From Sphagnum compactum (lineage: Eukaryota): a DNA stretch of 64,000 nt. A program made the translations under genes and the position numbers. The stretch covers positions 19,086,213 to 19,150,212 of the forward strand of contig OZ234493.1 in the NCBI GenBank assembly GCA_965153455.1, read 5' to 3'. Each line of letters opens with the position of its first letter. The stretch's first letter is position 1. The notes under the pieces were generated by a model. That model did not search any database and was not told where the DNA came from. It saw only the letters and a list, made by a program, of their open reading frames with translations. Positions 19,373 through 56,380 of the stretch are shown piece by piece.

Positions 19373-20997
19373 ACTCAGAGCACCTGTGGAGCTGCTCTAA
19401 AGGATGATTTTAATTACAACAAAAGATCTTTTGTCAAGTGATTTCCCTAAATTTGGGAATGAATTCATTAGTTTAAATAATTAATTAAAAAATAATGAAT
19501 TCAATGGTCTAGTGAATGGGGAGTAAGCAATTGCACCCACATTTCCTAATGATTAGAAGCAAACCCAAAGCGTTTGTAACTTGTTACCAGTATAGATGCT
19601 GCTTTGGTCAAGGCTAATATTTGTACCTGGTATACCAAATACAAATATTATCAGTGTTTTTTCTTCTCTTTTTTTTTTTTTTCAATTTTGTGGTTTGTAA
19701 AAACTTTGTCAAAATTTTCCATTTATTGAGCATTTGTTTCTCAAATTCACACTATTAAAACGAATTTTCCCAATTTCTTCGAATTTTCTTTGTAGCCACA
19801 GTGCGAAAATTCACCAAGAAAAATCACTCCTCTGTACAGAATTTCTTTTGTTTTTCAACTCCGGATTTATTTGTTATGACCGTCCATGTAATTTTTCCTT
19901 CTTCCCCCAGGCTGTTCCAATCATAGCCACTGGCCAGGGCGAACCAGCACCTACACTGGTACACTTGCCGTCTTGAGGAAGAGTCTTAGAGGCTGTCTTT
20001 ATCGATTCAGACTCTGATTTTGTCTAAGAGCATCTCCATCGCAAGACTGTAAACAACTCCTTTATGTTACAATAGAACAATGTTTAATCATCACCGTCCC
20101 CACCCACAACCGTCACAAAATTCCCTTTAAACACTCAAAGATCATTTATGTCCTTACATCTGGACCACTAATAGTCACTGCATGTCCAAATACATAGTAA
20201 AAAAAAAGGCTTTTAAAGGGGTTAAAATGACCACTGCAAAATTGAAATCAATACCGGAGCGGAGGAGGAATTACGCAATCCTGCTGCAAGATTTAATGAA
20301 AAGGGGTGTTTGCAGGTGTAGGGTGGCCGGTTCACCCAAGGCCCAATTAATCATCCATTGCCTGCAACATGAGCTCTGGCAGAACGCTTCCAATAATGCA
20401 CTGGGTGAAATCAGCCAACAGCAGGAAACGTGTGGAGCAATATTTTTTGGGTGAGTTTTGAGATATAGCCCAAGTGGCTATCATCGGTAGGAAGATTTAG
20501 TCAGATTTGGCTATGAGCTAAATGATCGCATTAGAAAATCTTCAACATCTTTCTCTTATTTTTGGCTACCTACTTGAAAACCATGTCTGGAAATCTGACG
20601 ATTTTTCTTCGGATTTGGTTGAATTTTGGCTATTGAAAATCTCAAAAAGCATTTGATTTTAGCACTTTCTAAATTTATGACTTAGCTTTTTTCCAGCTAT
20701 AGTTTTTTGGTAAAAGAAAGGTCGGTGTGTGGATGTGAACAAAAGTCATGATGATAAGAATGGAGGAGGCCAGAGAGAAAAAGTAAAGCGTGTTTGACAA
20801 GTCTCAAGGTGACGTTGCATATTCCATCCTCAATTATGAGTAGAAAATAGAGACATGTGTTCCAGAAAAGAAAGTAATGAATTGTTCAGTGACCAAGAAA
20901 TCGGTAAAACGCGTATGCTACAGTCTGAAGAGTCACGCCAAAACCCTTCTAGAAGTTTATGGGCGAGAAGAAAATGGGGAAGAAAAAATATCTGAAA

Positions 20998-21397
20998 GAA
21001 AAGTCGAAAAGGAGTAAGAAAAGAGAGTGGGAATTCCAGGGAGATCGTGAAGGAAAGGGGTTGATGTTCTTTGGAGAGATCTAGTGGAAAGATCAGCTTG
21101 CGAGAATCTGTGATGCGAGGGACACACATCATACCCTGTGTATGCCATTGGGATGGCAGAGGATTTCTAGCAGGTTTTATGAGAGCTTCTTCTTCTGTGA
21201 GAAAAGTCGAAAAAGGAGTAAGAAGAAAAGAGTGTGAGAATTCCAGGGAGTTCGTGAAGAGGAAAGCGATTGATGTTTTTTGACGAGATCTAGTGGAAAG
21301 ATCAGCTTAGCTTGCAGGAATCTGTGATGTGAGGGACACCCATCATACCCTGTGTATGCTATTGGGATGGCAAAGGATTTGTAGCAGGTTTTATGAG
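20998..21397 (+). repeat. Direct tandem duplication (~200 bp x2) just upstream of the HNL start
   Basis: GAAAAGTCGAAAAGGAGTAAGAA..GATCTAGTGGAAAGATCAGCTT..CATCATACCCTGTGTATGC..GCAGGTTTTATGAGA at ~20998-21185 and ~21201-21397. Confidence 0.9.
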
Positions 21398-21463
21398 ACC
21401 AAAAGGTTATTAGAAAAATATTTATGAGAGCAGTGAGCAAAAGGAATTTCAGTTGTGCGAAAT

Positions 21464-24400
21464 ATGGTAAAGCGAAAAGGAGCACAAGGGGCACGAAAAA
21501 GGAGAGATGTGCGGACCCCTGTTGCGATTGAGAAACCTTTGGTCCCAGCTGAAAATGCTCCTTCAAGCTCCGGATGGCACAACAATGTGGTGCTTCTTCT
21601 TAATCTTATGATGAGCTTTCTTTGCACAGTTTTTTCGTGGGCTTTCCCAAGTTACGCATTGAAGTTTGATAATTCTTTCCTTTTTTTTAATTTTTTGTTT
21701 GGGTGTTGACAATTGTCCTTGACCCTTACAACCACAATAGCTTATTGTCCTCACAAAGCATCCGGAGAAGGAGGTCTAGTTCAGATTTGAACTCCCAACC
21801 AACAACTTCACAACCATACCTTTTAGTCACTAGTGTACCTAAATGTCCCTAATTATTTACATGTTTCCTTGTCATACATTTTTACTTTGCTTACTTTCTA
21901 ATATCGTTGTTTAGATAAAAACAATATGAAATGATGTTTAAAGCAATACGAAATGGAGTCATCATAATATCCTCTTACATTAGGTTGGCAACTCATTTGC
22001 TAACAAGTAGAATTGGTGAAAGGGAAATTTGTCGAAATTTGGCATTGACTAAGAATATATTGAACTTGTAAGGATTGGAACTTTCATTATAGATTATAAG
22101 TTAAGTTCAATGTGTACTCTTAATCCAACAACCTAAAGCAAATTATTAAAATGTTCTTGGACATTCTTATTGGGTTTGTGTCCCAATTCTTTAGCTATCA
22201 GAGTTCTTAGAGGCCCAATTGTTGGGGAACATGTCATGAAATACAAGTGAACCAAACTAGATGGCTCAATTAATCAACCCAAACTTGAAAGAATCCAATC
22301 CTTAGCATTAACCTTTATTGTTTGACATGTGTTCCACCTATTATGTAACAACATTTACTTATTGAACTATGTTTTCAAACTTTGAGGTCTATGACAAGTG
22401 AATGATCTTCATTTGTTAGTCATACAAGATACATTTGGTATTCTTTGATTCATCTATTATTGTCATCTTGTTAAACTTAATCTTTTCAACCAATTATTGG
22501 TTTTGTCTACCTATGATAACTTATATATTGCATTTGTTTTATTTCATGTATGGTCAAATAATTTCCAAGAAACGTATGAAGAATTGTGTTGACTCGTTTT
22601 CATTTTCTTTGCAGGAATATCTAGTGCATGATTTAAATCCCAATTGCAATTCCAATAATCCAAACTTGACCATCATTTTTTTTCATGGGATTACTCTTGG
22701 CACGAATGATGCATGGAAGGAAACATGGACAACACGTCCCACCAACAATAGAAAAGAGTGCATATGTTGGCCAAAAAAGTGGCTACCCGAAGACTTGGAC
22801 AACAATGTTCGAATTTTATCATTGTCCTATGATTCTAACATTGTGGCAAGTGTTCACAATGACGTGACTGGAATCGGCAAAAACCTTGTTCAAAGTTTGA
22901 TTAGAAATCCAAGGTATGACCATCTCCTCTATTTATGTACACATTAATTACTTTTCCTTGTGTACATTAATGATAATCGTTTACATCTTTATAATTTCTT
23001 ACATGTTTTGCACGAGTTAATTGTTCATGTGTACCAGTACTGTGATACACACCAACAAGTTTCAATTTACTTGAATTATTAGATTCATGTATGAGAACAT
23101 AAAATGGGGCTTAAAAGAAAATGTTCTTGTTTGAGGATAATAGCAAAGTCTATGTTCATATTATATATTCATGGTACAACTAGTTTGGTTTTTATGGCAA
23201 TTTTTAGTTTGTGTTTTTTGAAGTTTTATCTTTGTTAATGCAATTGAATTGAATTAAATTAAATTAAATTAATACACATGTAGATAAATTTCATTGCAAT
23301 AACTTTTTTTTTTAAACATGTATATTTTTATTTATTTATATTTAAAAATTAAAAATTTCAACCATATTTCCAACATAACACATAAAAGATGAGTTGTACA
23401 TTAACAAAAGAATGTACACACCTACATACTTGTGCACAATAATTGTTTTACCAAAACATGGTTGTCACATTTTCTAGGTAGATTAATGGAATCAATTATG
23501 AACTTATAGCTTAAGTCATGTGTGAATTGGAAAATTGCCCCGAGTATAATAAGATGAATTTGTACATGCTAATACAATGTTGATAATGAAATTTCGGTGC
23601 ATTGTTGAATATTTTGTAGTTATCAATCCCTTTGGGATCGACCGGTGGCATTAGTTGCTTATAGTTTTGGAGGTCTTGTACTAAAAAGCTTAATGGTTGA
23701 AATTCGCAAACGTGAATATCAAAGGCCAAAAAATGATTTGGATAATGAAATACGAAAATGTTGTAAAACATTTTTGAATAATGTCAAAGGTGTAGTATTT
23801 TATGGTGTACCACATTCTGGTGCTAATGAAAATTTATCAAAATATTTCAATTGGCAATGTCAACAAATCAACTCATGCAACAAAGATTTTCCCCCACCTA
23901 GTTTTTCAAGAAATTTAAAACCTTTCAACGAACAAATGGAATCCCTTTCAAAGGAGTTTATAGATGCCGTTCATGAAGACTTCAACATTTATGAATTTGG
24001 CGAAGGATTACCAGTCAACAAGAAGTGGGTAAGATTTTCATTATCTCACATTGAAAGTTATCCAACTTGGTTCATTAGTTGAACATTTTTTGTATTGTCA
24101 AAACTTGTGTGGGATCTTTTACTCAATATTTTTAAATATATCAATGTGGTGAATGGGTCATGTGTTTTATGAACTTTGTTTCATGAATTACTATTGATGG
24201 AAATGAAACGTGATTGATTTCAAACATCAAGAAATGGGTTTAAAATTTCCCTTCATCAAATCAATTCCACATAAATATTTTTAAGGAAAATCATAACATC
24301 GTTAAACCATGTAAGATTCCTGAGATTAATAACCAATAACTTTGTGATGTATTTACATAAGTTGTTTGCCAAAAGGTTGAAGGAAATTACTTATACACAA

Positions 24401-27400
24401 TATTTCATTATTATTCAAACATTAATAGTTATTAAGTTATAGTTTCCACCGCCATTTGGTTTATAAGTTAAAGGATAAGTGAATAAACAAATTAATGAAT
24501 TTCATCAATTTAATCTTTTGCACATGCAGGGAATTTTAGTGCCATATGTTTCAGCTACTCGGTTGTCAAACAACAACCATTACAAAATTGAGGATGCTAA
24601 TCACTTGACAATTTGCAAGCCACTAAACAAGGATCATCCAAGTTATTCTTTATTGTTACAATGTTTAATAAAATTTATGCAGATAAAAACATCAAATCTA
24701 ATTTTTTTGATTTCCTATATGTTCATGTAATTTGAAACATATTAGGTCATAGCATACTTGATGTGTATCGCATATGGAATATCATATATATTAGTTATCA
24801 AATAAGAAATATAACATATAAATGACCTATATTTTGTGAATTTTGACAGAAAAATATAGAGCTTCCACCTTTGCCATGTCATGAGGTGGCGTTGATTGAT
24901 AAAGCCAACGACATAAACATGTTGTTACAAAAAGAATCTATTGTTGGTTTGCTTGGAATGGGTGGGATTGGGAAAACCACATTGTGCAAAAAATTCTATC
25001 ATTTATTCCACAACCAATATGATGAATCTAGTTTTTTAGAGGATGTGAGTTCAAAGGACAATATCAATGATGTCATCAAACAACTCCTACATGATTTGTG
25101 TGGCGAAAGGTTATGCAAAGAGGAAAATGTGAATAAAGAACACCTCGACAAAATTAAGCAATGTATGATATCGAAGAAAGTGTTAGTGGTGGTGGATAAT
25201 GTTGGTAAGGCGAAACACTTTACATCTTTGCCAATTCTCATTGATAAGGCTACCAAGAATCTAGCTTCTAAAAGCAAAGTACTTGTGAATTGTCGAAATT
25301 GGCAAATTCTAAATTCTCATGTAAATGAGGATGGAAAAATGGTCATGAAACCTTTAAAGAAAGAGCAAGCAAGGGAACTTTTTATGTTCCATGCATTTGG
25401 TAATGCAAATCATGTTCCAACAAAAGATTTCAACGACATATGTATGAAAAGTATAAAAGTTTGTGGGGGGCTCCCTTTAAGTCTTAAAGTATTGGGTTCT
25501 TCTTTATACAATACTAAAGAATTAGAAATTTGGAAAGGTGCATTGAGCACATTGAAAAGTGGGCAAAGTTTGACAGGGGGCGATGATAATGAAGAGCTTT
25601 GGAGTACATTGAGGATTTCTTATGACCCTTTGGATAAAGAACATAAAAATATGTTTTTAGATATTGCTTGTTTTTTCGATGGTTTAAAAATCAGTACGAT
25701 TTGTCGAGCGTGGAGTGGAGATTATTCCCACCCAAAATTTGGATTAAGAAAGTTACAAGAGAGATCTTTAATCAAAGAGGCAGAGGGTGGAATCTTGTAC
25801 ATACATGACCAATAACGAGACATGGGTCGAAAAATTGCAACGGAATTACCAATTATGAATCGATTTGTATGGAAATCAAATCAATCAAATTATTTTTTAA
25901 AAAAGGAGGTTGTCATTCTATTATTTCAATCCTATAATTTTATTTCAATTTCTTATGATTTTTTTTTATGTGCAAAACCAAATGTTTTAGTTTTGAATTT
26001 TGATTTTATAAATACATGTTTTTCCAATAAATTTTGGCATTAGGATGAAATGTTATTTTTCATTGATAATCCTTTTGTTTTCATTTCATGTGATAGGTGG
26101 TGGAACATTTACACGGCATTTCGTTGAAAAAGTGTGACAATTTGCCTTTGTTGTCCGAATTTGACTTGAAGGGATTTTGCAACCTTAGGTTGGTTGACCT
26201 AACAGAAGCTTCACCAACTATTGTGGAACATTTTATCCAACAACGAAATTTGAGTAATGTTAAATGGGTATGCCTCAAAAAATGCATGATGCAAAAATTG
26301 CCAAGTAATTTATTTTCTTGTTCACAACTTCGAATGCTGGATTTGGCACAATGCGAAAAATTGGAAGAACTACCTTCATCTATTCACCAATTGAATGCAC
26401 TCCAAGAGTTTGATTTGTCATGGTGTTCCAACTTGAAAAAACTACCTTCATCTATTGGCCAATTGACTACACTCCAAACATTTGATTTGTCAAGGTGTTT
26501 CAACTTGAAGGAATTATCTTCATCTATTGGCCAATTTAATGGACTCCAAGAGCTTCGTTTGCAAGGGTGTTCCAAGTTGGAAAAACTACCTTCATCTATT
26601 GGTCAATTGAATGCACTCCAAGAGCTTGATTTGTCAGGGTGTTCCAACTTGAAGGAATTACCTCCATCTATTGGCCAATTGAATGCACTCCGAAAGGTTG
26701 ATTTGTCATGGTGTTCCAACTTGAAAGAACTACCTCCATCTATTGGCCAATTGACTACACTCCAAATGTTTGATTTGTCAAGGTGTTCCAATTTGAAGGA
26801 ACTACCTCCATCTATTGGCCAACTGAATGCAGTCCAAAAGTTTTGTTTGCGAAGGTGTTTCAAGTTGGAAAAACTACCTTCATCTATTGGTCAATTGAAT
26901 GCACTCCAAGAACTTGATTTGTGTGATTGTTCGAACTTGGAAGGACTACCTTCATCTATTGGCCAATTGATTATGCTCCAAACGTTTGATTTGTCAAGGT
27001 GTTCCAACTTGAAAGAACTACCTTTATCTATTGGTCAATTGGATGCACTCCAAGGGCTTGCTTTGTGTGAATGTTCGAATTTGGAAGGACTACCTTCATC
27101 TATTGGCCAATTGATTACACTCCAAATATTTGATTTGTCAAGGTGTTCCAATTTGAAGGAACTACCTCTATCTATTGGCCAATTGATTACACTCCAAATA
27201 TTTGATTTGTCAAGGTGTTCCAATTTGAAGGAACTACCTCCATCTATTGGCCAATTGAATGCACTCCAAAAGCTTAATTTGCGAGAGTGTTCTAAGTTAA
27301 AAGAACTACCTTCATCTATTGGCCAATTGAATGCACTCCAAAAGCTTGATTTGTCATGGTGTTCCAAGTTGAAAGAACTACCTTCATCTATTGGCCAATT

Positions 27401-28460
27401 GAATGCACTCCAAATGCTTGATTTGTCATTGTGTTCCGAGTTGAAAGAACTACCTTCATCTATTGGTCAATTGAATGCACTCCAACATCTTGATTTGTCA
27501 TGGTGTTCCGAATTGAAAGAAGTACCTTCATCTATTGGCCAATTGAATGCACTCCAAATGCTTGATTTGTCATTGTGTTCCGAGTTGAAAGAACTACCTT
27601 CATCTATTGGCCAATTGAATGCACTCCAAAAGCTTAATTTGCAAGAGTGTTCCGAGTTGAAAGAACTACCTTCATCTATTGGCCAATTGAATGCACTCCA
27701 AAAGCTTAATTTGCAAGAGTGTTCCGAGTTGAAAGAACTACCTTCATCTATTGGCCAATTGAATGCACTCCAAAAGCTTAATTTGCGAGAGTGTTCCGAG
27801 TTGAAAGAACTACCTTCATCTATTGGCCAATTGAATGCACTCCAAAAGCTTAATTTGCGAGAGTGTTCTAAGTTAAAAGAACTACCTTCATCTATTGGCC
27901 AATTGAATGCACTCCAAAAGCTTAATTTGCGAGAGTGTTCCGAGTTGAAAGAACTACCTTCATCTATTGGCCAATTGAATGCACTCCAAGAGCTTAATTT
28001 GCAAGAGTGTTCCGAGTTGAAAGAACTACCTTCATCTATTGGCCAATTGAATGCACTCCAAGAGCTTAATTTGCAAGAGTGTTCCGAGTTGAAAGAACTA
28101 CCTTCATCTATTGGCCAATTGAATGCACTCCAAAAGCTTAATTTGCGAGAGTGTTCTAAGTTAAAAGAACTACCTTCATCTATTGGCCAATTGAATGCAC
28201 TCCAAATGCTTGATTTGTCATTGTGTTCCGAGTTGAAAGAACTACCTTCATCTATTGGCCAATTAAATGCACTCCAACAGCTTTATTTGGATGAGTGTTT
28301 CGGCTTGAAAAAACTACCTTTATCTATTGGTCAATTGAATGCACTCAAAGAGCTTGATTTGCGAGGGTGTTCTGAGTTGAAAGAACTATCTTCATCTATT
28401 GGCCAATTGAATGTATTAACTCCAAATTATTCTCACTACATCAATTGCACCCACTATTAA
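21464..28460 (+). pseudogene. Alpha/beta-hydrolase-NB-ARC-LRR (HNL-type NLR) immune receptor, disrupted as assembled
   Basis: Exons: 21464-21589 (inferred), 22615-22913, 23620-24028, 24530-24682, 24850-25908, 26097-28460; phases consistent. Hydrolase motifs FFHGI, CWPKKWLPED, RILSLSYDS, AYSFGG, FYGVPHSG, NHLTICKP. NB-ARC motifs GMGGIGKTT, VVVDNV, SKVLVNCR, GGLPL, IHDQ. About 29 LRRs. Lesions: donor at 24683 reads AT instead of GT; TAA at 25813-25815. Confidence 0.88.
26376..28417 (+). repeat. Coding tandem array of ~29 x 72-bp (24-aa) LRR units
   Basis: Near-invariant GAACTACCTTCATCTATTGGCCAATTGAATGCACTCCAA alternates with variable segments encoding xLxLxxC; exact 72-bp period with no indels. 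Confidence 0.97.
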
Positions 28461-30097
28461 AACTAATTAAAAACACTTTTATGTGAGGTTTCAAACTCTT
28501 ACCAAGGCCAACATAGTCAAGAACAGAAATATTGGTAAAAGTCATGTTATTGCAATAGAAATATCAGTATGGTAAAGGTAGCAACCATGGTAAGTTCAAA
28601 TATTTTATTCGGGCAAAATGTGCAAAGGAGAGGTATATTCGAAGGGTCATACTAGGCTTTACATGTACCAAATATAATTATTCTTGTCATTACCACATAT
28701 CAGGGTATAACCTATAAGATGATCCTAAACACCCCCAAAATGACAAGAAATATATTTTCCAAAATTAACCCCCCAAAAAAATCCCAAGGTTAAAGTCAGA
28801 AATCATAAGGTTAACCCCTACTACAAAATCTACCTACTTTGTAACCCTTGTCTTGCTAGAATGTACATACCCTAGCTCATATTCATTGTATGATACCCAT
28901 GTACTAACTTGTCTTTAGCCAAATGATATATTTAGCCAACTAAGCGTTAACTAACATATCTTATGAGCTAGAACTTTCCATTTGCCTCTAATTCAAGCAT
29001 CATATTCAGGGTTTTCATTTTAATTTGAATTTGACAACTGCGGGTTGTGCATGACAAGTGTACAATAATTATGGTGATTTTTGGTGACTATATATATAAA
29101 TTTTTTTAAATTTTTTTAATTTAAAAAAAATTAAACTTATTTTATTTTATTGGCAATTTTGTTCCCCAAAAACAGGGAATCACTCACCGATACTGGTATG
29201 TAGCAATGTTGATCAATTATGGTGTTTTAGACTTCACCCTCATGATCCCATCATAAATTTCTTTTGGAAATGTTCTAACAGAAGGATATGATTTGCCAAC
29301 CCAAATACCTCACAAACTTGAAAAAAAGAACACTACCTGGACCCAATGTTTTTCAGGGAATTTTTCTATGTAGCCAAAGTGGCTATCCTCTATAGGGAGC
29401 TGTTGAAAATATGGCAATCATCTCTAGGAAATTTTTGGCAAAATCTGGCTAAAAAGCCAGATATGAAGCACAAATCTTGAATCATCCTTCTACATTTTTT
29501 TGCTACATATTCAGAACCAAATGTAAAAACCAAGTGTATTTTCACCTTTTTACTCACTTTTGGCAATTGAAACTTTTAAAAATTATTCCATTTTCTAAAT
29601 TTGAATTTTGGCAAAGCTTCACCAGTGAAAATTAGGCTGCTTGAAACCATATACAAAGACCAGATTGCAATGAAAGTTTTTTAAAAGTAACCATTTTCTA
29701 CAACATGATGGAAGAAAGAAAATGAGCACTCTCACATTGTCGTGCAAAACACCAACATAAACACCTTTTGTACTTTGAAAGGCGTAATGGATACATGTAC
29801 AAATCAAAGGGTAGAAGAAAGGAGCTATGATTAATACTACATGAAAGGATTACGAGAATTTTTTTTGACTTACAGAAAGGTCACATTCTCCCATGACTTT
29901 AAAATCACCAACTTTTGTTCACTTCTCCTCTTGCTCCATGCATTTTTAGTTTACTGTTTCAAGAATGAGACCCAAGGGACATGTATCAAAGCTTCAGCCA
30001 TGTGCCTGTGTGGGTAAATAACTCTCCCCGTTGATGTTTGTTCGTTACCTTTTGGTTACAATAAATTGATCCAATATACATTTGAAGAGAGGTCTTC

Positions 30098-34057: not shown

Positions 34058-34817
34058 GCTGTCTTGATGAGACAGAGGGAATCTTGCAGAGGATCTGGTC
34101 CGAGAATCGGAGAAGGATGCCTTGGGAGCTTGCTGCCGTGGGTTTATGGTATCGAGGGACCTTGCTTAGAGGTTGCAGCAGATTCATTGCAATGGAACTG
34201 ACGGCAAAAACATATTTGCAAAAACAAAGCTCTAGAAATCAGAATTGAATGCTGTCTTGATGAGACAGAGGATATTGCAGAGGATCTGCTCCAAGAAGAG
34301 GAGATGCCTGGTGAGCCTGCTGCTGTGCGTGATATGATATGGAAGGACTTTGTTTGCATGGTGCAGCAGATTTCATTGCAATGGAATTGATGGCAAAACA
34401 CACATTTGCAAAACAAAGCTCTAGAAATCAGAACCTGGAAGTGAATGCTGTCTTGATGAGACAGAGGATATTGCAGAGGATCTGGTCCAATAAAGAGATG
34501 CCTTATGAGCCTGATGCTGTGTGATATGGAATGAGGACCTAGCTCGCAGGTTGCAGCAGATTTCATTGCAATGGAATTGATGGCTAAACACACATTTGCA
34601 AAACAAGCTCTAGAAACCAGAACCCAGAAGTGAATGCTATTTTGATGAGACAGAGGATCTTGCAGAGGACCTGGTCCAAGAAGAGCCTTGTGAGCTTGAT
34701 GCTGTGTGATATGGTATGAGGACCTTGCTTGCAGTTTGCAGATTTCATTGCTATGGAATATGATGGCAAAAACATGTTGCCCAACAAGCTCTAGAACTCG
34801 GAACCCAGAAGTGAATG
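34058..34817 (+). repeat. ~190-bp tandem repeat, 4 copies, upstream of FBN8
   Basis: TTGATGAGACAGAGG..TTGCAGAGGA..CAGATTTCATTGCAATGGAA..GCTCTAGAA units start near 34061, 34254, 34450 and 34639. Confidence 0.9.
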
Positions 34818-44400: not shown

Positions 44401-47400
44401 AACATTCTGTAAGTATTGGCATAAGATCAATGAACTGCTGCATCTAAGGTTCTGATTGCAGCTGTCAGCTCACTGAAACCATATTGCCCATAGTTGTATC
44501 CCACTTTTGGCATCAGTGAACCAGAGAGTTTTCTCTCCTGCTTGAACCATTATTTCCTCTTACTGTCTCTTGGAGCCCAAAAAGATAATTGAGTTACAAA
44601 CCTGTACTTTTGAACCTGCACAATTCCAAGGGAACATTGTCTGGATTCTAATTGGTCATAGTAGTTCAGGATTACCTAACAAAATGGCATTCTGCAGGTT
44701 GTAGCATCTGCAATAGTTGGGGTTGGGGCATCACCACCAGCGTCACCATCATCACAGTCCCAGATACTTGAAGACAGTGCAACCTCCGAAGCATCTACTG
44801 AGTCACCAAGGGCTCAAACACCTTCTGTCCCTCTGTTGGGAAACTCTCCTACAAGTGGATTGATTCCTGGTCCTCAAGAAATAGGGCCAGGTGCAGCAAC
44901 AGCAGTAGCTTCAATGACAGCAACAACTCCATCTCATGGATCAGGCAACCCTACCAATTTGGGTATCCTTCCAAGTGCTGCAGCAGTAAGGCCGCTTCCT
45001 GTAAAACCATCTAGTATGGCAACTACTCTAGAGCACACTGCAGTGAGCTTGCTTGGAAGGACCAATGAGGAGCAAGGAGGTATAACAGGGTATAGAACTG
45101 GACCCAGCATTACTGATGGAGACTTGGTCAGAAGTGTGAGTAGAGGTTCAGGAGTTTCTATCCACACACCACCCCATGTGTCTCTTGGGATTGCTGGGGG
45201 CTCTCTAGGCTCCAATCTACATTCAGGTGCCTCTCCTCCTGTGTTGGATTTGAATAAGAGGTTGGGGTTGGTTGGTGGTGAGGATAGACTAGGAACTGGT
45301 CTTTCACAGGAATCTGCAAGCTCTCTGGGTGCTCAAAGTCAACCTTTTGCAGCTACTGGTGCAAAGCTTGGAGAAACTGGTGGCTCTACTGTTGATGGTG
45401 CAGAAGGAAATCACAGTGGTGGGTGCATTTTCACTCCTCCTGGAATTTCTGGTGGGCAATGGAGACCACATACTGCAAGCACACTGAAGGCCCAGCAGGC
45501 AGAGTTGGTAAGAAAATGGTTACTTCAAGGCTATGTCTATCATCTCTCTCATAGAAATAATTCACAATTGCCCAGTCCTGGGGTTGGGATTTCTCACTCT
45601 TGCAATGTTTTGTCTGTTAATTGTAATAAAACATTTTCTTTGTGGAGTGTCCTTTGCTTTTGTCTCTGGCTGTACCAAGGTTGACTGCATCTATGGTGAT
45701 ATGTCAAGGAAGGTACTTTGCTGGAAGCAACAGGGTGCAGCTATAACTTTTGGTATTGGCTACTGGGTTGGAGGTGCAGGGTCAGTTTCATGGCCGCACA
45801 GAGATTGCACCTGATCAGAAACAGAAGTTTTTGCAACAGTTGCAGCAAATCCAGCAAGGTCATGGTACTGTTGCCACCTTGCTTGGCGCCCGAGGATCAT
45901 CCCAGATCCCTCACCTTGCTGCCCCCATGCCTAAACAACCCCTAGGACCTCAGCAGCAACCAGCATTTCTACAGCAGGTTTCTGTTCATGGCTTACTGAT
46001 ATAATTCTCTATGCGTGTGTAAGCAGACTGCTCACCAAGGATACTCAAGATATGTAATGAACTGTTGACCTGTTTAATTAGATGCTGCCAATTGTCCAAG
46101 CACATAGTGCCATGGTTTTTCTTAAGAGTTTCTTGTGCCATGTGGATTTTGCTTATTTTAGTCTTGAGTCCTTCAGGATTGGGAATGAGTTTAAGCAGTC
46201 CTGTGTGCTCAGTGCAAATGAAGGGGGTTGATATAAGTGTTTGGCTTTTGATGACCTACTTGATCTTCTGGTTGACTTCCTTATGAGATTTTGATTTTGT
46301 ATGCAGGCCCAGATTCAAAGTCTGCAACAGCAGCAGCAACAACATAATTCTACTTTGCTACCAACCCAAATGGTATCAATGCCACAGCAGCAGCCACCAT
46401 TGGGTGTGGCGACAAGTCCGCAGGCCCTTTCCCCAGCTTCAACACCACCAATCCCACCTCAAAACTCGCAGTTGCCCACGCCCCAGTCTTCTGCTCACCA
46501 GATCCCCAGACAACTGTCCCTTTCATCCACAACATCTTCTAGTGAGAATGGTCAGTAGGTGTAATCCACTGCTGTTCTTAATTTGTTAGTGGATGGAGTC
46601 TACTTCTGTACCTCTCTGTCATTGCCAAGTTGGGGTTGTAAACTGTAGTGATCTCAGGTGTTTGAAGATTCTTCCTTTTTGTATTTTCAAGATGTCCCAA
46701 CTGTACAGGGAGGTTCAGAGCATAATGAACGACTGCTACATGATTTGCTCAGAAACAGGTGTAAGAGCTGTGGAGCAAGCAGTGCAGCAGATTTCACCGC
46801 AGCAGACAAAGCCTTTGGAGGAAACAAACAGTGATGCATCTGTGTTGAGTGCGGTTTTTTCTAGAAATGTATCCCTCAGCGAAGATGACCTGAAGAATGC
46901 TGACACATTTGATGTTTCAGTGAGCTACGTCCAACTCCACAGTCAAAGTTATTCTAGTATTGCAATCTCCAGGAAGTACTTAGACTTTTATGCTTGGACA
47001 CACAGGATTTGTATCTGAGAGATTGTGACACTAATCTTGTATGCAGATTGGTGGACCAGGGACATTAGCAGAGTTCAGCCAGCTATCAAGGGATGCAGAC
47101 TTTGCACCAGGGCAAGTGGTATCATCTTTACAGCAGCGTTCACCTGGTCCAGGTTTGATAGGGAGAAGAAGTATGAGTGACCTGGGTGCCATTGGTGACA
47201 ATCTGAGTCCAGCACTTGGGGGAGGAAATGCCTCAGGACAGCATGATCAACTGTTCAATTCACAGGCCTTAGAGGCTGCATATCGCAAACTTCCCTTGCC
47301 AAAAGACTCTGAGCGACCCAGAAGCTACATCCCAGTAAACTTTTTGCTCTCTTCTGCACTTGAGTAGTTGCTCATATTTACTTTGGTTTTCCTGTTTGAA

Positions 47401-51026: not shown

Positions 51027-54000
51027 TCATGAGGTTGTGGTGTTCAGTTGAAAATGAAGCAACATTCGCACACCTGCCAGTGGAAAGCCTTTTTTGTCCA
51101 ACAATTGGAGGCATCGGTACCCACTCTTCAGCTCAGAGATTGGGAGGCAAGACTGGCCTTCGAAGTCATCTTTCATGTATTTCTCTTCTTTGACTTCAAC
51201 GCGTATAAGTGCCAATTCTGGTACTGTCAAGGGGAACTCAAACTCTGTATCCCATGTCGGTGTCCAACTATCCTCCACAACCTTTGTTTTCTTCATAACA
51301 CTGTCAGCTGGAACTCCTGCAATCCCCATCTGCAACCAAACATTTCCACTCTTGGAGTTTTGTGATTTTTTCACTTCTCTTTCTGATGGTATCTCTGATG
51401 AGCAAACAATCTCCATCTACTTCTCAAAAGAATTGACTGCCGAACATCATCTCCATCAAACTCCATCTACTTCTCAAAAGAATTGACTGCCACACATCAT
51501 CTCCATCAAACTCCATTTACAACTCAAAAGATTTTTGACTAGTCCACATGTCTCCATCTTAACCCAATTGGAATCTCCACTTCTGACATGAACAAATGGG
51601 TGAAGAAACTTGGGACAAGTTAAATACCCGGATGTAAAAGTCTGGCGATGGGTGGTGTTTGCTGGATCGCTCCTTCCACCCAAGGCATGTTAGCACTTTT
51701 ACCTGAACCCCAAATTCCCCAAACACCATCAGTTGAAAGAGAAACAAAAGAAAAGAGTTTAGTAAAGCTTTTCTCTATTGTTGCTGAGATCAAAAAGTCC
51801 AAGCTCCAAATCCCCACCTGACACAAAAATCTTAGCCTTAAAAGAAAGGAATATTCATGAGATTGCAGAGGAAACTCCAGACAAAAACACTTTGAAGGTA
51901 ACAGAGTGTTCAGTTCCAATGAAACCTGCAGAAAAGAAAATAAGAAAAAAGAGTGCAAGTCGTTTGATTGAAGCTTTGCCTTGAATTTTCTACTTGAAGG
52001 CCCAGTGTAAAATTTACATCACCTTCAAGATTGTCTTCACTGGTCGTGGTTTCAGAGGATCAAAGACTTCACCATCTTTACCCATTTCAAGCAGGAAATC
52101 TGGTTTCTTGACATACCCACATCCTCCATTTGCTTTAAAGAAACCATGGAGTAGCCAAAGGTGCTTTCCATACCCCTGGAAAAACGCATCCACAAATTTG
52201 TGTCATAATAACATCTGAAAACCAATTTAGTAGACATAGAAGTGAGCTTCAAATTTTGCAAATATCTCACAGAAAAATCAAAATCCATCTGACACATTTG
52301 CATTGGAATGGAACCCAACATATAATAGTAAATTGCAATAATCATGATGCTCCATCTAGCAAGACTTACTGAAAAACAAAACAGTAGATGCTGTTTACCT
52401 GCATGTTGAGAGCCACCATTTGAGCTCCATGTGTCCAACCCAGAATTGGGCTGTAATTTGAGGAATCCACTCGCATGCCAGAAGGATAAACTCGAACAAC
52501 ATTCCTCTGTGTAAACCTGTCCGGTTTGGTAGTCAGAATTTTGAGTTCTTCTGTGCAAGTTCTTAAATCTCACACCTCACTAAGTACTTGGAAGTCTTGA
52601 GATTCAAAGCTACAATTTGTTCAAGTTCTGGCCATCCAAGTTCTTAAATCTCACACCTCACAAAGAGCCTGGAAGTCTTGAGATTCAAAGCTACAATTTG
52701 TTTGAGTTCTGCCATGCAAGTTCTTACGTCTCAAGTCTCACCAAGTACAAACTCAGAAGTCTTGAGATTCAAAGCTACAATTTAGTCAAGTTCTGCTTTG
52801 CAATTTCTTGAATCTTAAGTCTCATCAAGGAACTTTTGAGAATCAAAGCTACAATCTGTTCTGAGTTCTGCCATGCAATTTTCTGCAATGTTAAGGCTCA
52901 TTAAGTAACAAAGTTTTGAGATTCAAAGCTACAATCTGTTTGAGTTTTGCCATGTAATTTCCAAAATCCATCAAGTAAGGAGGTTTTGAGATTCAAAGCT
53001 ACAATATGTCTGTTACGGTTTTTATCCAGCAACTAGGATTACAGATTTTTTAGGGTTAAGGATTTTTGTGATTTCAGATTGTGGCACCATCTGAGTCAAG
53101 GTGCTTCAGCTCATCCTCTGTTAGAACAGCTTGGAGGATCATCTTTCCATGCCTACAACCTTTTGGTTCAAATTAGTTTGAGACAGATCAATAATCTAAC
53201 TAAGCTGAACTGATTGACTACAAGATTGATTCTGCAACAAGAGTTTGAATCAACTGTTCAAGAACATGGAAACATTGCAAATGCTGATCTAGAATCTAGA
53301 TACAGCGTGGTGTAGAAAAACCAATGAGGTCATATATCAAATTACAAAGTGGATCCGGGAAGGGTGTTCTCACTTGACAAGAAGTTCAGGAGATTCCTCA
53401 ACCACTTTCTCCAATTGTGGTTCACTAAGACTGATTCGCTTCACTGTTTTGCCAACCACGAACACTTCCTTGAATGACGAGCCTGACAGTTTCCCAGCTG
53501 GGATGCTGATTATGCCCGCATACTTGGGATGAAGAGTTTTGTCAGCTGCTTGATTTTCCCCTACTGATGCTGCTGCTCCATCAATGTCATGAGCCACATG
53601 CTCATGCTTTTCCTCAGGCACTGATGAAGATCCCTGAGAAAGTGAAAAGGTTCATGTGAACATTTTTTCTCAGGTTGATTAACAAACACTCTTGCCAAGA
53701 GAAAACAAAAAAGCACAAATACAAACTGCAACAATCTCTTGAGCACAGTCTTTACATTTGTAAGATTCTATGTTGCTCTCCAATTGCTCTCCTATACATT
53801 CTTCTTTCCAAGCATTATCCAAAAGATGTGTTGGAGCCCATTGTGTACCCATTCCATTTTTACCTTCTTCCCCATGTGAAGTTTGGAAACTTCTGCACTC
53901 AGAATATGGTGTTTCACTATGGCTTGTGTTTTCTCTTCATCCTCATCTTCCTTTGGTGGTTTGGTTGAGATAAGAATCTTCCCCTTCAATGTCTCTGGAG

Positions 54001-56024: not shown

Positions 56025-56380
56025 CTATAGCCAAATGTGATTGGGAATTTTCTTATGGATGATTACCATTTGAGCAACACCCATTAAATTTTCTTATGGA
56101 TGATTACCATTTGAGCAACACCCATGTGGATCTATAGCCAAATGTGATTCAATCTTCTTATATTTGATTAACATTTGAGCAACACTCCATGTGGATCTAA
56201 TAGCCAAATGTGATTAAATTTTCTTATGGATGATTTGAGCAACACCCATGTGGATCTATAGCCAAATGTGATTGAATCTTCTTATAGATTATTAACATTT
56301 GAGCAACACTCCATGTGGATCTAATAGCCAAATGTGATTAAATTTTCTTATGAATGATTACCATTTGAGCAACACCCATG
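56025..56380 (+). repeat. ~60-bp minisatellite, about 6 copies
   Basis: TATAGCCAAATGTGATT..TTCTTAT..GATT..TTTGAGCAACACCCATGTGGATC in tandem, with two alternating variants. Confidence 0.88.

What the first reader, a model, noticed from the sequence alone, without database searches (positions are those of the whole stretch)
26376..28417. LRR array built from constant 72-bp frames with re-used variable cassettes: candidate repeat-shuffling immune diversification system
Seen: ~29 indel-free units share a ~40-bp nearly invariant block, and variation concentrates in the x positions of xxLxLxxC (K-N-RE, M-D-SL, K-N-QE, E-N-QE, H-D-SW, I-D-SR). Identical cassettes, including synonymous markers, recur non-adjacently: AAGCTTAATTTGCGAGAGTGTTCTAAGTTAAAA in units 13, 21 and 25, and ATGCTTGATTTGTCATTGTGTTCCGAGTTGAAA in units 15, 17 and 26. 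The 5' half shows multi-unit duplications (1-3 ~ 5-7, 8-9 ~ 10-11); the 3' half is more homogenised. Established: those positions form the ligand-binding concave face; typical angiosperm NLR LRRs are far more degenerate; high-identity repeat shuffling generates specificity in fungal HNWD NLRs, lamprey VLRs and TAL effectors. Inference: recombination between constant blocks may rapidly permute recognition surfaces, possibly somatically in a long-lived clonal gametophyte.
Basis: partly seen in the sequence, partly recalled or inferred. Interest (0 to 1): 0.85.

Follow-up and report, generated by a model that had tools for sequence, protein, structure and literature searches.

The report
Repeat-rich peat-moss immune receptor pseudogene
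The very regular 72-base repeat array is real and forms the ligand-binding part of a peat-moss (Sphagnum) immune-receptor gene, but this copy is disabled and the pattern fits ordinary repeat duplication and homogenisation rather than a programmed or somatic diversification system.

Summary
Window 26361..28413 is an indel-free 72-bp array of 28.5 copies. It is in frame in the LRR exon of a hydrolase-NB-ARC-LRR (Hyd-NLR/HNL) gene of Sphagnum. Variation peaks at unit positions 3, 5, 7, 8 and 11, on or next to the predicted beta-strand.

The "re-used cassettes" are whole 72-nt units copied exactly (13=21=25, 18=19, 20=22, 23=24). They were found in none of 50 related loci or 337 related proteins.

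This copy carries a TAA where 22 of 22 relatives have Leu, and a GT>AT splice donor. DNA contigs of two studies confirm the TAA. RNA of another individual shows an about 98-99% identical, spliced copy with Leu.

Long regular arrays, up to 54 units, are the rule in this family. Same-locus pairs that are 97.8-99.9% identical show no unit gain or loss and no excess non-synonymous change at the x positions. Between loci, synonymous sites of the constant half diverge about three times less than in neighbouring single-copy coding sequence, which suggests homogenisation as in fungal NLR repeats.

Programmed or somatic shuffling has no support. The array itself was not checked with spanning reads.

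The parts
22616..22913 (+). Exon encoding the first part of the N-terminal esterase/alpha-beta-hydrolase-like domain. Its 5' end is not settled.
   Evidence: 87% identical to P0137 residues 55-155. RNA joint 22911>23618, GT..AG with cut +2, 4 reads. A loose end at 22615 in 11 RNA reads suggests an upstream exon. An in-frame ATG at 22546 matches the annotated start of P0116.
23620..24028 (+). Second hydrolase-domain exon, holding the ..VAYSFGG.. serine motif.
   Evidence: 66% identical to P0137 residues 152-287. P0137 hits Pfam PF05057 (DUF676, putative serine esterase) at 25.1 bits against a cut-off of 20.3. RNA joints 22911>23618 and 24027>24529. The window exons alone gave no Pfam hit.
24530..24682 (+). 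Linker exon 3 (GILVPY...CLIKFMQ).
   Evidence: Matches P0008, P0011 and P0027. RNA joints 24027>24529 (4 reads) and 24679>24847 (11 reads; 4 letters fit either side).
24683..24684 (+). Splice donor of intron 3 reads AT instead of GT. This is the likely second disabling lesion.
   Evidence: The window has CAG|ATAAAAAC. All 4 of 4 related loci that match this stretch (L002, L011, L013, L024) have CAG|GTAAAAAC. The A itself was not positively confirmed by reads.
24850..25908 (+). NB-ARC plus winged-helix exon, ending after the MHD-type motif (IHD) and the RDMGR motif.
   Evidence: Pfam NB-ARC E=6.8e-32 and WHD_ROQ1 E=9.7e-07. RNA joint 25906>26095, GT..AG, 12 reads.
25813..25815 (+). In-frame TAA replacing a conserved Leu codon (IHDQ-L-RDMG). 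It cuts the protein off before the LRR.
   Evidence: 7 of 7 fetched homologs have Leu, and 22 of 22 related loci have TTA or TTG. The A at 25814 lies in contigs without differences in run X1 (25647-25871, depth 36) and run X3 (25472-25825, depth 7.3). 9 of 9 RNA reads of run X22 have T there.
26097..28460 (+). LRR exon: 77 non-repeat codons, then the array, then a 16-codon tail and a stop at 28458-28460.
   Evidence: Open frame of 787 aa. Pfam LRR_14 E=1.5e-110. Best solved relatives are the RPP1 (7crb, E=1.1e-68) and Roq1 (7jlv, E=4.8e-49) LRRs. The AlphaFold2 model has mean pLDDT 87.1 and is a regular strand/helix solenoid with period 24.
26328..28413 (+). 72-bp (24-codon) tandem array: units 0-28 in the LxxLxLxxC register, followed by a cut-off last unit.
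27264..28271 (+). Recently amplified 3' block (units 13-26) with exact unit copies 13=21=25, 18=19, 20=22 and 23=24.
   Evidence: Distance matrix. The longest block with mean pairwise amino-acid identity of at least 85% is 15 units, or 360 aa.
28414..28594 (+). 3' boundary of the array and its flank, shared with relatives.
   Evidence: 28391-28594 is 91.7% identical to the 3' end of L003, and 28411-28530 is 91.7% identical to L001.

Best explanation
What it is. The array is the LRR domain of a Sphagnum hydrolase-NB-ARC-LRR immune-receptor gene (Hyd-NLR/HNL). This family has LRR exons built from very regular 24-codon units.

How the array evolves. It grows, shrinks and becomes mosaic through unprogrammed recombination between its own near-identical units: unequal crossing-over, replication slippage and short-tract gene conversion. 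The same process keeps the structural half of each unit uniform. The solvent-exposed x positions stay diverse over long times.

The 3' half. In this locus the 3' half is a recent local amplification of a few unit types (E-C-D-A, one to three substitutions apart, plus the D-SL/D-SW types). This explains identical units at non-adjacent places.

State of this copy. The sequenced copy is a null allele or pseudogene: a nonsense codon lies between NB-ARC and LRR, and a splice donor is mutated. [quoted passage not shown]

Shown: anatomy, family, lesions, expression of the related copy, whole-unit identity, privacy of the cassettes to this locus, family-wide regular arrays, and low synonymous divergence of the constant half.

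Inferred: the recombination mechanism, its timing, and the selection on x positions.
For: Gene and family:
- NB-ARC and LRR hits in Pfam.
- 1680 and 3133 relatives at E<=0.001; nearly all named ones among the best hits are Sphagnum.
- The N-terminus is homologous to DUF676-bearing relatives.

Whole-unit copies.

Cassettes are private to this locus:
- 0 of 24 distinct window units and 0 of 21 distinct cassettes occur among 940 units of 50 related loci.
- The five recurrent cassette peptides occur in 0 of 337 related proteins. The frame peptide LKELPSSIGQLNALQ occurs 150 times in 35 proteins.

Family-wide regular arrays:
- 46 of 50 loci carry units, with indel-free runs of up to 54, 43 and 40.
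- 15 of 55 annotated relatives with at least 3 units have a block of at least 5 units at >=85% identity.
- L036 also repeats cassette types at non-adjacent places.

Turnover over longer times:
- Against L001 (93% identical flanks) only unit 0 is orthologous.
- L003 has 14 units between the same 5' and 3' boundaries that hold 29 units in the window.

Mosaicism: 3 of 10, 39 of 120 and 32 of 66 site pairs fail the four-gamete test.

Homogenised frame: synonymous third-position distance between 15 arrays (105 pairs) is 0.057 in codons 13-24, 0.169 in codons 1-12 and 0.158 in the non-repeat LRR N-terminus.

Positions and structure: within-array pN/pS at positions 3, 5, 7, 8 and 11 is 2.0 overall and 4.8 in the 3' half, against 0.66 and 0.05 elsewhere. 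Those positions lie in or next to the predicted strand, at unit positions 3-5 or 3-7.

Lesions and expression.
Against: - Unit number and order in the window were not verified with spanning reads, so part of the 3' block could be an assembly product.
- In the 5' half, pN/pS at the x positions is 0.82, which is no excess.
- Between orthologous units of relatives it is 0.39. Diversifying selection is therefore seen only in comparisons between paralogous units, which recombination can distort.
- Short-term substitution in the frame half is not clearly lower than in the cassette half: 82 against 94 differences in 175 unit pairs; 53 against 77 in the 94 coding pairs, with synonymous 10/1082 against 17/1044. 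This neither proves nor excludes homogenisation as opposed to selection on the nucleotide sequence.
- The related loci come from short-read metagenome contigs of unnamed samples. Such assemblies collapse identical repeats. They are probably from other Sphagnum genotypes or species, not from this genome.
- Whether the RNA-bearing copy is an allele or a close paralog is not settled.
Confidence: 0.7

Rival explanations
1. Family-wide 'high internal conservation' system of the fungal HNWD kind. Units are exchanged within and between Hyd-NLR loci by concerted evolution. The constant half is maintained as the recombination substrate, and the reshuffled x-position cassettes are selected for new recognition specificities.
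For: - The frame half is about 3 times less diverged at synonymous sites than single-copy coding sequence of the same loci (0.057 against 0.158).
- The exact main frame 36-mer is present in 29 of 50 loci.
- Mean unit distance within arrays (13.9) is barely below that between arrays (14.8).
- The 85% over 100 aa criterion of Dyrka 2014 (passage read) is met by the window and by 15 of 55 relatives.
- Arrays of close relatives are not collinear.
- The model of Paoletti 2007 (passages read) predicts exactly this combination.
Against: - No window cassette or unit is shared with any of 50 loci.
- There is no repeat-number difference in 6 same-locus pairs.
- There is no excess non-synonymous change at the x positions between orthologous units.
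- A unit's nearest neighbour lies in its own array in 33% of cases against 3.9% expected, so duplication is mostly local.
- Selection on the nucleotide sequence could also explain the conserved frame.
Confidence: 0.3
2. Neutral minisatellite-like expansion in a dead gene. The 3' amplification of identical units happened after the gene lost function and has no bearing on immunity.
For: - There are two disabling lesions.
- The share of units with an identical twin is 0.31 in the window and at most 0.15 in all 39 related loci with at least 8 units.
- The amplified cassettes are unknown elsewhere.
Against: - The 787-codon frame is still open.
- Differences among the amplified units are almost all non-synonymous and at x positions: pN/pS 4.8 against 0.05 elsewhere.
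- Short-read assemblies of the relatives would collapse identical twins, so the contrast is biased.
- A 98-99% identical copy is expressed and has Leu at the nonsense site in another individual, so the lesions may be very young.
Confidence: 0.2
3. Assembly artefact. The number and order of the near-identical 3' units were produced by the assembler.
For: - Units 13-26 include four sets of exact copies.
- No spanning read was examined.
- Logan contigs break inside such repeats, and no listed piece spans even the 4.1-kb stretch that was laid.
Against: - The array is perfectly in frame with no indel over 2.05 kb.
- Its 5' junction up to 26420 is covered by contigs without differences (X1 26203-26416, X3 26203-26345), and reads run on into the next unit as the window predicts.
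- Equally long regular arrays exist in independent assemblies.
Confidence: 0.1
4. Programmed or somatic diversification. Recombination between constant blocks permutes the recognition surface within the life of a clonal gametophyte, as in lamprey VLR assembly.
For: Only permissive points: a long array with identical recombination substrates; mosses have no separate germ line (general knowledge, not from a call); and the array of the closest relative has been fully turned over.
Against: - There are no donor cassettes outside the array in 64 kb. All 25 matches lie inside it.
- This copy cannot make an LRR-bearing protein.
- Arrays of relatives are collinear at 97.8-99.9% identity, with no 72-nt gain or loss in single collinear alignments that span arrays of 10 to 36 units.
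- No heterogeneity was listed at the 5' junction of the array in DNA runs X1 and X3.
Confidence: 0.03
5. The constant half is conserved at the nucleotide level because it is itself a target, for instance of a small RNA that controls many Hyd-NLR transcripts at once.
For: Synonymous sites of codons 13-24 are conserved at 0.91-0.98 family-wide, against 0.61-0.82 for conserved residues of the cassette half. Between loci the distances are 0.057 against 0.158-0.169.
Against: - No small-RNA data were examined.
- The short-term substitution rate in the frame half is not clearly reduced.
Confidence: 0.07

Closest known systems
Bryophyte hydrolase-NB-ARC-LRR receptors (HNL of Xue et al. 2012, PMC3352924; Hyd-NLRs including Sphagnum in Chia et al. 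2024, PMC11218826; passages read)
   Same: Same domain order: an esterase-like N-terminus, then NB-ARC with a Roq1-type winged helix, then LRR, with introns between the domains. The NB-ARC exon is 75-92% identical to many Sphagnum proteins.
   Different: This copy has a nonsense codon and a mutated splice donor. The passages I read do not mention the regularity of the LRR units. The supplements, which list the genes, were closed.
Fungal NLRs with highly internally conserved repeats (HNWD/het-d, het-e; Paoletti et al. 2007, PMC1805685; Dyrka et al. 2014, PMC4986451; passages read)
   Same: An NLR whose C-terminal repeats are >=85% identical over more than 100 aa. Variation sits at a few surface positions. 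There is mosaic exchange of units, a uniform remainder of the repeat, and pseudogene members whose repeat region stays open.
   Different: The repeats are LRRs, not WD40, ANK or TPR; Dyrka et al. found no LRR in fungal NLRs. The host is a plant, where RIP (repeat-induced point mutation) does not apply. No units shared between loci and no repeat-number polymorphism were seen here.
TIR-NLR LRR domains with solved structures (RPP1 7crb, Roq1 7jlv)
   Same: They are the best matches among solved structures (E=1.1e-68 and 4.8e-49). They have the same LxxLxLxxCxxLxxLP type of unit, and the winged-helix domain is of the Roq1 type.
   Different: The N-terminal domain is different. There is no C-terminal post-LRR domain: 12 of 12 printed relatives end in or just after the array. 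That the units here are far more uniform than in those proteins is from recall and was not measured.
Tomato Cf-2/Cf-5 and Cf-4/Cf-9, flax L/M/P, Arabidopsis RPP5: resistance genes with near-identical LRR units and copy-number alleles (recalled; no call)
   Same: Variation in LRR unit number by unequal exchange within the gene, with specificity set by solvent-exposed xxLxLxx residues.
   Different: Those arrays are shorter and less uniform as far as I recall. This was not checked here.
Lamprey VLR assembly and TAL-effector repeats
   Same: Recognition surfaces are built from near-identical repeat units that differ at a few positions.
   Different: VLRs are assembled somatically from flanking donor cassettes into an incomplete germline gene. 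No donor cassettes lie outside the array here. TAL repeats read DNA and belong to bacterial effectors.

Membership tests
Plant NLR, hydrolase class (Hyd-NLR/HNL) | Central NB-ARC domain | tested here: met
   PF00931 E=6.8e-32 on 24847-25815, plus PF23282 WHD_ROQ1.
Plant NLR, hydrolase class (Hyd-NLR/HNL) | C-terminal LRR domain | tested here: met
   PF23598 E=1.5e-110 and PF23286 E=5.6e-55. The model is a regular solenoid with pLDDT 87.1.
Plant NLR, hydrolase class (Hyd-NLR/HNL) | N-terminal alpha/beta-hydrolase (esterase-like) domain | tested here: inconclusive
   The window exons alone give no Pfam hit. They are 87% and 66% identical to P0137 residues 55-287, which hit PF05057 DUF676 at 25.1 bits against a cut-off of 20.3. 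The serine motif reads AYSFG. The catalytic triad was not examined.
Plant NLR, hydrolase class (Hyd-NLR/HNL) | Intact reading frame and splice sites (a functional member) | tested here: not met
   TAA at 25813-25815 where 22 of 22 loci and 7 of 7 proteins have Leu. The intron-3 donor is AT where 4 of 4 loci have GT. The TAA is present in DNA contigs of two studies.
NLR repeats with high internal conservation (fungal HNWD type) | Repeats >=85% identical over >=100 aa (criterion of Dyrka 2014, passage) | tested here: met
   A block of 15 units (360 aa) has mean pairwise identity >=0.85.
NLR repeats with high internal conservation (fungal HNWD type) | Positive diversifying selection at surface positions | tested here: inconclusive
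   Between paralogous units, pN/pS is 2.0 overall, 4.8 in the 3' half and 0.82 in the 5' half. Between orthologous units of relatives it is 0.39. No site-model test was run.
NLR repeats with high internal conservation (fungal HNWD type) | Concerted evolution within and between loci | tested here: inconclusive
   For: the frame half has synonymous distance 0.057 against 0.158 in single-copy sequence, and within-array distance is about equal to between-array distance. Against: no identical unit or cassette is shared with 50 loci.
NLR repeats with high internal conservation (fungal HNWD type) | Repeat-number polymorphism among individuals | tested here: not met
   In relatives only: 6 same-locus pairs at 97.8-99.9% identity align as single collinear matches without a 72-nt gain or loss. 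It was not testable for the window's own locus. These are short-read contigs, so the test is weak.
Somatic cassette-assembly receptors (lamprey VLR type) | Donor cassettes flanking an incomplete germline gene | tested here: not met
   All 25 matches to the constant block lie inside the array and none lies elsewhere in 64 kb. There is one 72-bp array in the window.
Somatic cassette-assembly receptors (lamprey VLR type) | Array differs between cells or tissues of one individual | not testable with these tools
   This needs long-read amplicons from one clone.

The most novel reading that the evidence does not exclude
Sphagnum Hyd-NLR genes run a plant, LRR-based counterpart of the fungal 'high internal conservation' NLR regime. 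The structural half of every 72-bp unit is kept nearly identical across dozens of loci by gene conversion, even at synonymous sites. Arrays therefore stay recombination-competent. Unit gain, loss and mosaic exchange then generate new concave-surface combinations much faster than point mutation. In a plant without a separate germ line, this could also act within long-lived clones.
Probability: 0.25. Interest if true: 0.75.

Novelty: new variant of a known kind. Interest (0 to 1): 0.42.

Why it matters
Hyd-NLRs are a bryophyte receptor class whose recognition mechanism is unknown. This family may combine three features: very long, near-perfect LRR arrays; a constant half that is homogenised across loci; and hypervariable surface positions. 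If so, it would be a plant parallel to the fungal HNWD system, and a natural case for studying how repeat recombination creates receptor diversity.

My six literature searches found no paper describing such LRR arrays in bryophyte NLRs. Supplements were closed, and subscription journals are not in the library.

The specific locus matters less. It is a null allele, and its recurring cassettes are local copies.

Tried and rejected
- Whole-genome search for the cassettes: no genome is held for this window.
- Pfam on the separate N-terminal exons and on three other large ORFs of the window: no hits.
- Shared-cassette pool: rejected for the samples at hand. 0 of 21 cassettes occur in 50 loci. Only 2 of 21 cassette peptides, both near the family consensus, occur in 337 proteins.
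- Simple block duplications as the source of the dispersed A units (type KLNLRECSK, units 13, 21 and 25): rejected, because their neighbours differ by up to 7 nt while the A units are identical. Single-unit or short-tract conversion fits better.
- Codon bias as the cause of frame conservation: rejected, because the non-repeat part of the same exon, in the same genomes, has synonymous distance 0.158.
- Bias from my 68% identity threshold when collecting units: judged small, because the long runs are complete in 72-nt register.
- First version of the synonymous-distance script: timed out and was rerun faster.
- Run shares other than the four runs laid: not used as evidence.
- Antisense frame 27467..28282 (271 aa): a by-product of the repeat, not treated as a gene.


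Full report
**1. What is in the sequence**

Tandem Repeats Finder reports a single array at 26361..28413 with period 72, 28.5 copies, 87% matches and no indels. It is the only 72-bp array in the window.

A 36-nt probe from the constant block matches 25 times at up to 3 mismatches, 11 of them exactly. All matches lie inside the array, and none is expected by chance.

The array is in frame in an open frame of 787 codons, 26097..28460. This frame is a strong LRR match (LRR_14, E=1.5e-110). I re-phased the units so that each starts with LxxLxLxxC (unit 0 at 26328).

**2.

- Amino-acid entropy over units 1-28 peaks at positions 3, 8, 7, 11 and 5 (2.49, 2.27, 1.90, 1.71 and 1.70 bits). Positions 6, 9, 12 and 18-21 never change.
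- An AlphaFold2 model has mean pLDDT 87.1, from a single sequence. It gives a 24-residue period with a strand at unit positions 3-5, or 3-7 in units 18-24, and a short helix at positions 17-21.
- By the established geometry of LRRs, positions 3, 5 and 7 then face the concave side.
- One correction matters. The recurring elements are whole units. Units 13, 21 and 25 are identical over all 72 nt, as are 18=19, 20=22 and 23=24. Units 15, 17 and 26 differ by 1-2 nt.
- The unit types of the 3' half form a short mutational chain: ELNLQE, KLNLQE, KLNLRE, and KLNLRE with a three-base patch.
- The 5' block duplications are only partly supported (p=0.018 and p=0.08 by permutation).

**3. The gene**

- Upstream exons encode an NB-ARC domain (E=6.8e-32) with a Roq1-type winged helix.
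- Further upstream lies an N-terminal region that is 87% and 66% identical to a Sphagnum protein, P0137. That part of P0137 hits Pfam DUF676, a putative serine esterase.
- The NB-ARC exon has 1680 near-length and 3133 longer relatives at E<=0.001. Nearly all the named ones among the best hits are Sphagnum (fallax, jensenii, compactum, balticum, tenellum, troendelagicum).
- This is the hydrolase-NLR class described for bryophytes, Sphagnum included (passages of PMC3352924 and PMC11218826).
- The best solved relatives of the LRR are the TIR-NLRs RPP1 and Roq1.

**4. This copy is disabled**

- Right after the IHD (MHD-type) motif the window reads TAA at 25813-25815. There, 7 of 7 fetched homologs have Leu and 22 of 22 related loci have TTA or TTG.
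- The donor of intron 3 reads AT at 24683. All 4 of 4 related loci that match this stretch have GT.
- I laid four public runs on 22300..26420. Contigs without any difference cover the TAA in two DNA runs from two studies: X1 at 25647-25871 (depth 36) and X3 at 25472-25825 (depth 7.3). One of these may be the source of the assembly.
- In a poly-A RNA run of the same species label (X22), 9 of 9 reads have T at 25814, which gives Leu.
- Those RNA reads differ from the window at some 40 listed places. Hi-C DNA reads of the same study (X21) show the same variants where they cover.
- That individual therefore carries a roughly 98-99% identical copy, either an allele or a very close paralog. It is transcribed from the + strand and spliced at 22913/23620, 24028/24530, 24682/24850 and 25908/26097. 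These junctions agree with the homolog-based model.
- The A at 24683 was not positively confirmed by reads.

**5. The family**

One scan of metagenome contigs with the non-repeat start of the LRR exon returned 50 related loci.

- 46 of them carry the same 72-nt units, with indel-free runs of up to 54, 43 and 40 units.
- Among 240 fetched proteins, 55 have at least 3 units (median 9, maximum 24). Of these, 15 have a block of at least 5 units with mean identity >=85%. The window has 29 units and a block of 15.
- Relatives end inside or just after the array, with no post-LRR domain.
- Some arrays continue past the stop as decayed units. This is largely why 238 of 940 units contain a stop.
- L036 also shows cassette types recurring at non-adjacent places.

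**6. Tests of the shuffling idea**

(a) *Shared cassettes.* None of the 24 distinct window units or 21 distinct cassettes (nt 1-36) occurs among the 940 units of the 50 loci. The main frame 36-mer, by contrast, occurs in 29 of 50 loci. At protein level only 2 of 21 cassette peptides, both near the consensus, occur in 337 related proteins. The five recurrent ones occur in none.

(b) *Stability.* Six same-locus pairs from different samples, 97.8-99.9% identical, align as single collinear matches. They cover 10 to 36 units and show no 72-nt gain or loss.

(c) *Turnover at greater distance.* The closest relative, L013 plus L001, has 93% identical flanks but shares only unit 0 with the window. L003 has 14 units between the same two boundaries that hold 29 units in the window. 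Short-read contigs can collapse repeats, so this last point is weak.

(d) *Selection.*
- Between paralogous units of the window, pN/pS at positions 3, 5, 7, 8 and 11 is 2.0. It is 4.8 in the 3' half and 0.82 in the 5' half. The other 19 codons give 0.66, 0.05 and 0.89.
- Between orthologous units of relatives (175 pairs) it is 0.39, against 0.52 elsewhere. Differences fall evenly on the two halves, 94 and 82. A stricter pairing gives 77 against 53 in coding units.

(e) *Mosaicism.* 32 of 66 informative site pairs fail the four-gamete test. Recurrent mutation at hypervariable sites can contribute to this.

(f) *Homogenisation.*
- Among 15 arrays (105 pairs), the synonymous third-position distance is 0.158 in the non-repeat part of the exon. 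It is 0.169 in unit codons 1-12 and only 0.057 in codons 13-24.
- Family-wide, third positions of the frame codons are 0.91-0.98 conserved.
- Units are barely closer within arrays (13.9) than between them (14.8). Even so, a unit's nearest neighbour lies in its own array in 33% of cases against 3.9% expected. That count used 31 loci plus the window, after dropping 10 redundant loci and those with fewer than 8 units.

**7. Reading**

The simplest account is ordinary, unprogrammed repeat recombination in a family whose LRR units are unusually uniform. It involves local unit duplication, short-tract conversion, and occasional large changes in unit number. Over long times the structural half is homogenised and diversity persists at exposed positions.

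This is the regime described for fungal HNWD/HIC NLRs (passages of PMC1805685 and PMC4986451), but with LRRs and in a plant. Two defining features of that regime were not met in my samples: units shared between loci, and repeat-number polymorphism. One more, positive selection, is inconclusive. I therefore say it works like that regime and do not file it as a member.

Nothing supports a dedicated or somatic mechanism. There are no donor cassettes, the receptor at this locus is disabled, and arrays are stable at small divergence.

**8. Limits**

- The array itself was not checked with spanning reads.
- The related loci are short-read contigs from unnamed samples.
- Paper supplements, which may list these genes, were closed.
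- Six literature searches found no description of such LRR arrays in bryophyte NLRs. The library lacks most subscription journals.
- The comparisons with Cf-2/Cf-5, flax L/M/P, RPP5, VLRs and TAL effectors are from recall.

Noticed in passing
window 27467..28282 (- strand): A 271-codon open frame runs antisense through the array, with shorter ones at 26603-26890 and 27035-27466. It repeats with the unit and looks like a by-product of a stop-free repeat, not a gene.
   Followed up: no
window 22615: 11 RNA reads of run X22 have loose left ends at 22615 with a common 30-nt sequence. The expressed copy probably has an upstream exon, and the annotated-style start (ATG at 22546, as in P0116) may be wrong.
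   Followed up: no
L001 3430..4730; L036 2147..2940: In relatives the 72-nt array continues beyond the first stop codon as progressively decayed units with stops and small indels. This suggests that arrays shorten functionally by point mutation while the DNA repeat persists.
   Followed up: partly
L011 (N-terminal LRR part); L017 versus L018: L011 has an in-frame stop in the non-repeat LRR start. L018 has a 1-nt shift inside the array relative to L017. Pseudogenes seem common in this family.
   Followed up: no
window 26169-26172: 20 and 14 RNA reads, plus X3 contigs, have loose ends here with two different upstream sequences that resemble LRR N-terminal coding sequence of paralogs. This is probably cross-mapping of related transcripts and not alternative splicing.
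   Followed up: no
window 34058..34817, 20997..21398, 52540..52968, 56046..56380: Other tandem repeats with periods 189, 214, 81 and 66/124. They are unrelated to the LRR unit.
   Followed up: no
window 44680..45684 (+): A 334-codon open frame rich in Ser, Pro and Gly with no Pfam hit.
   Followed up: partly
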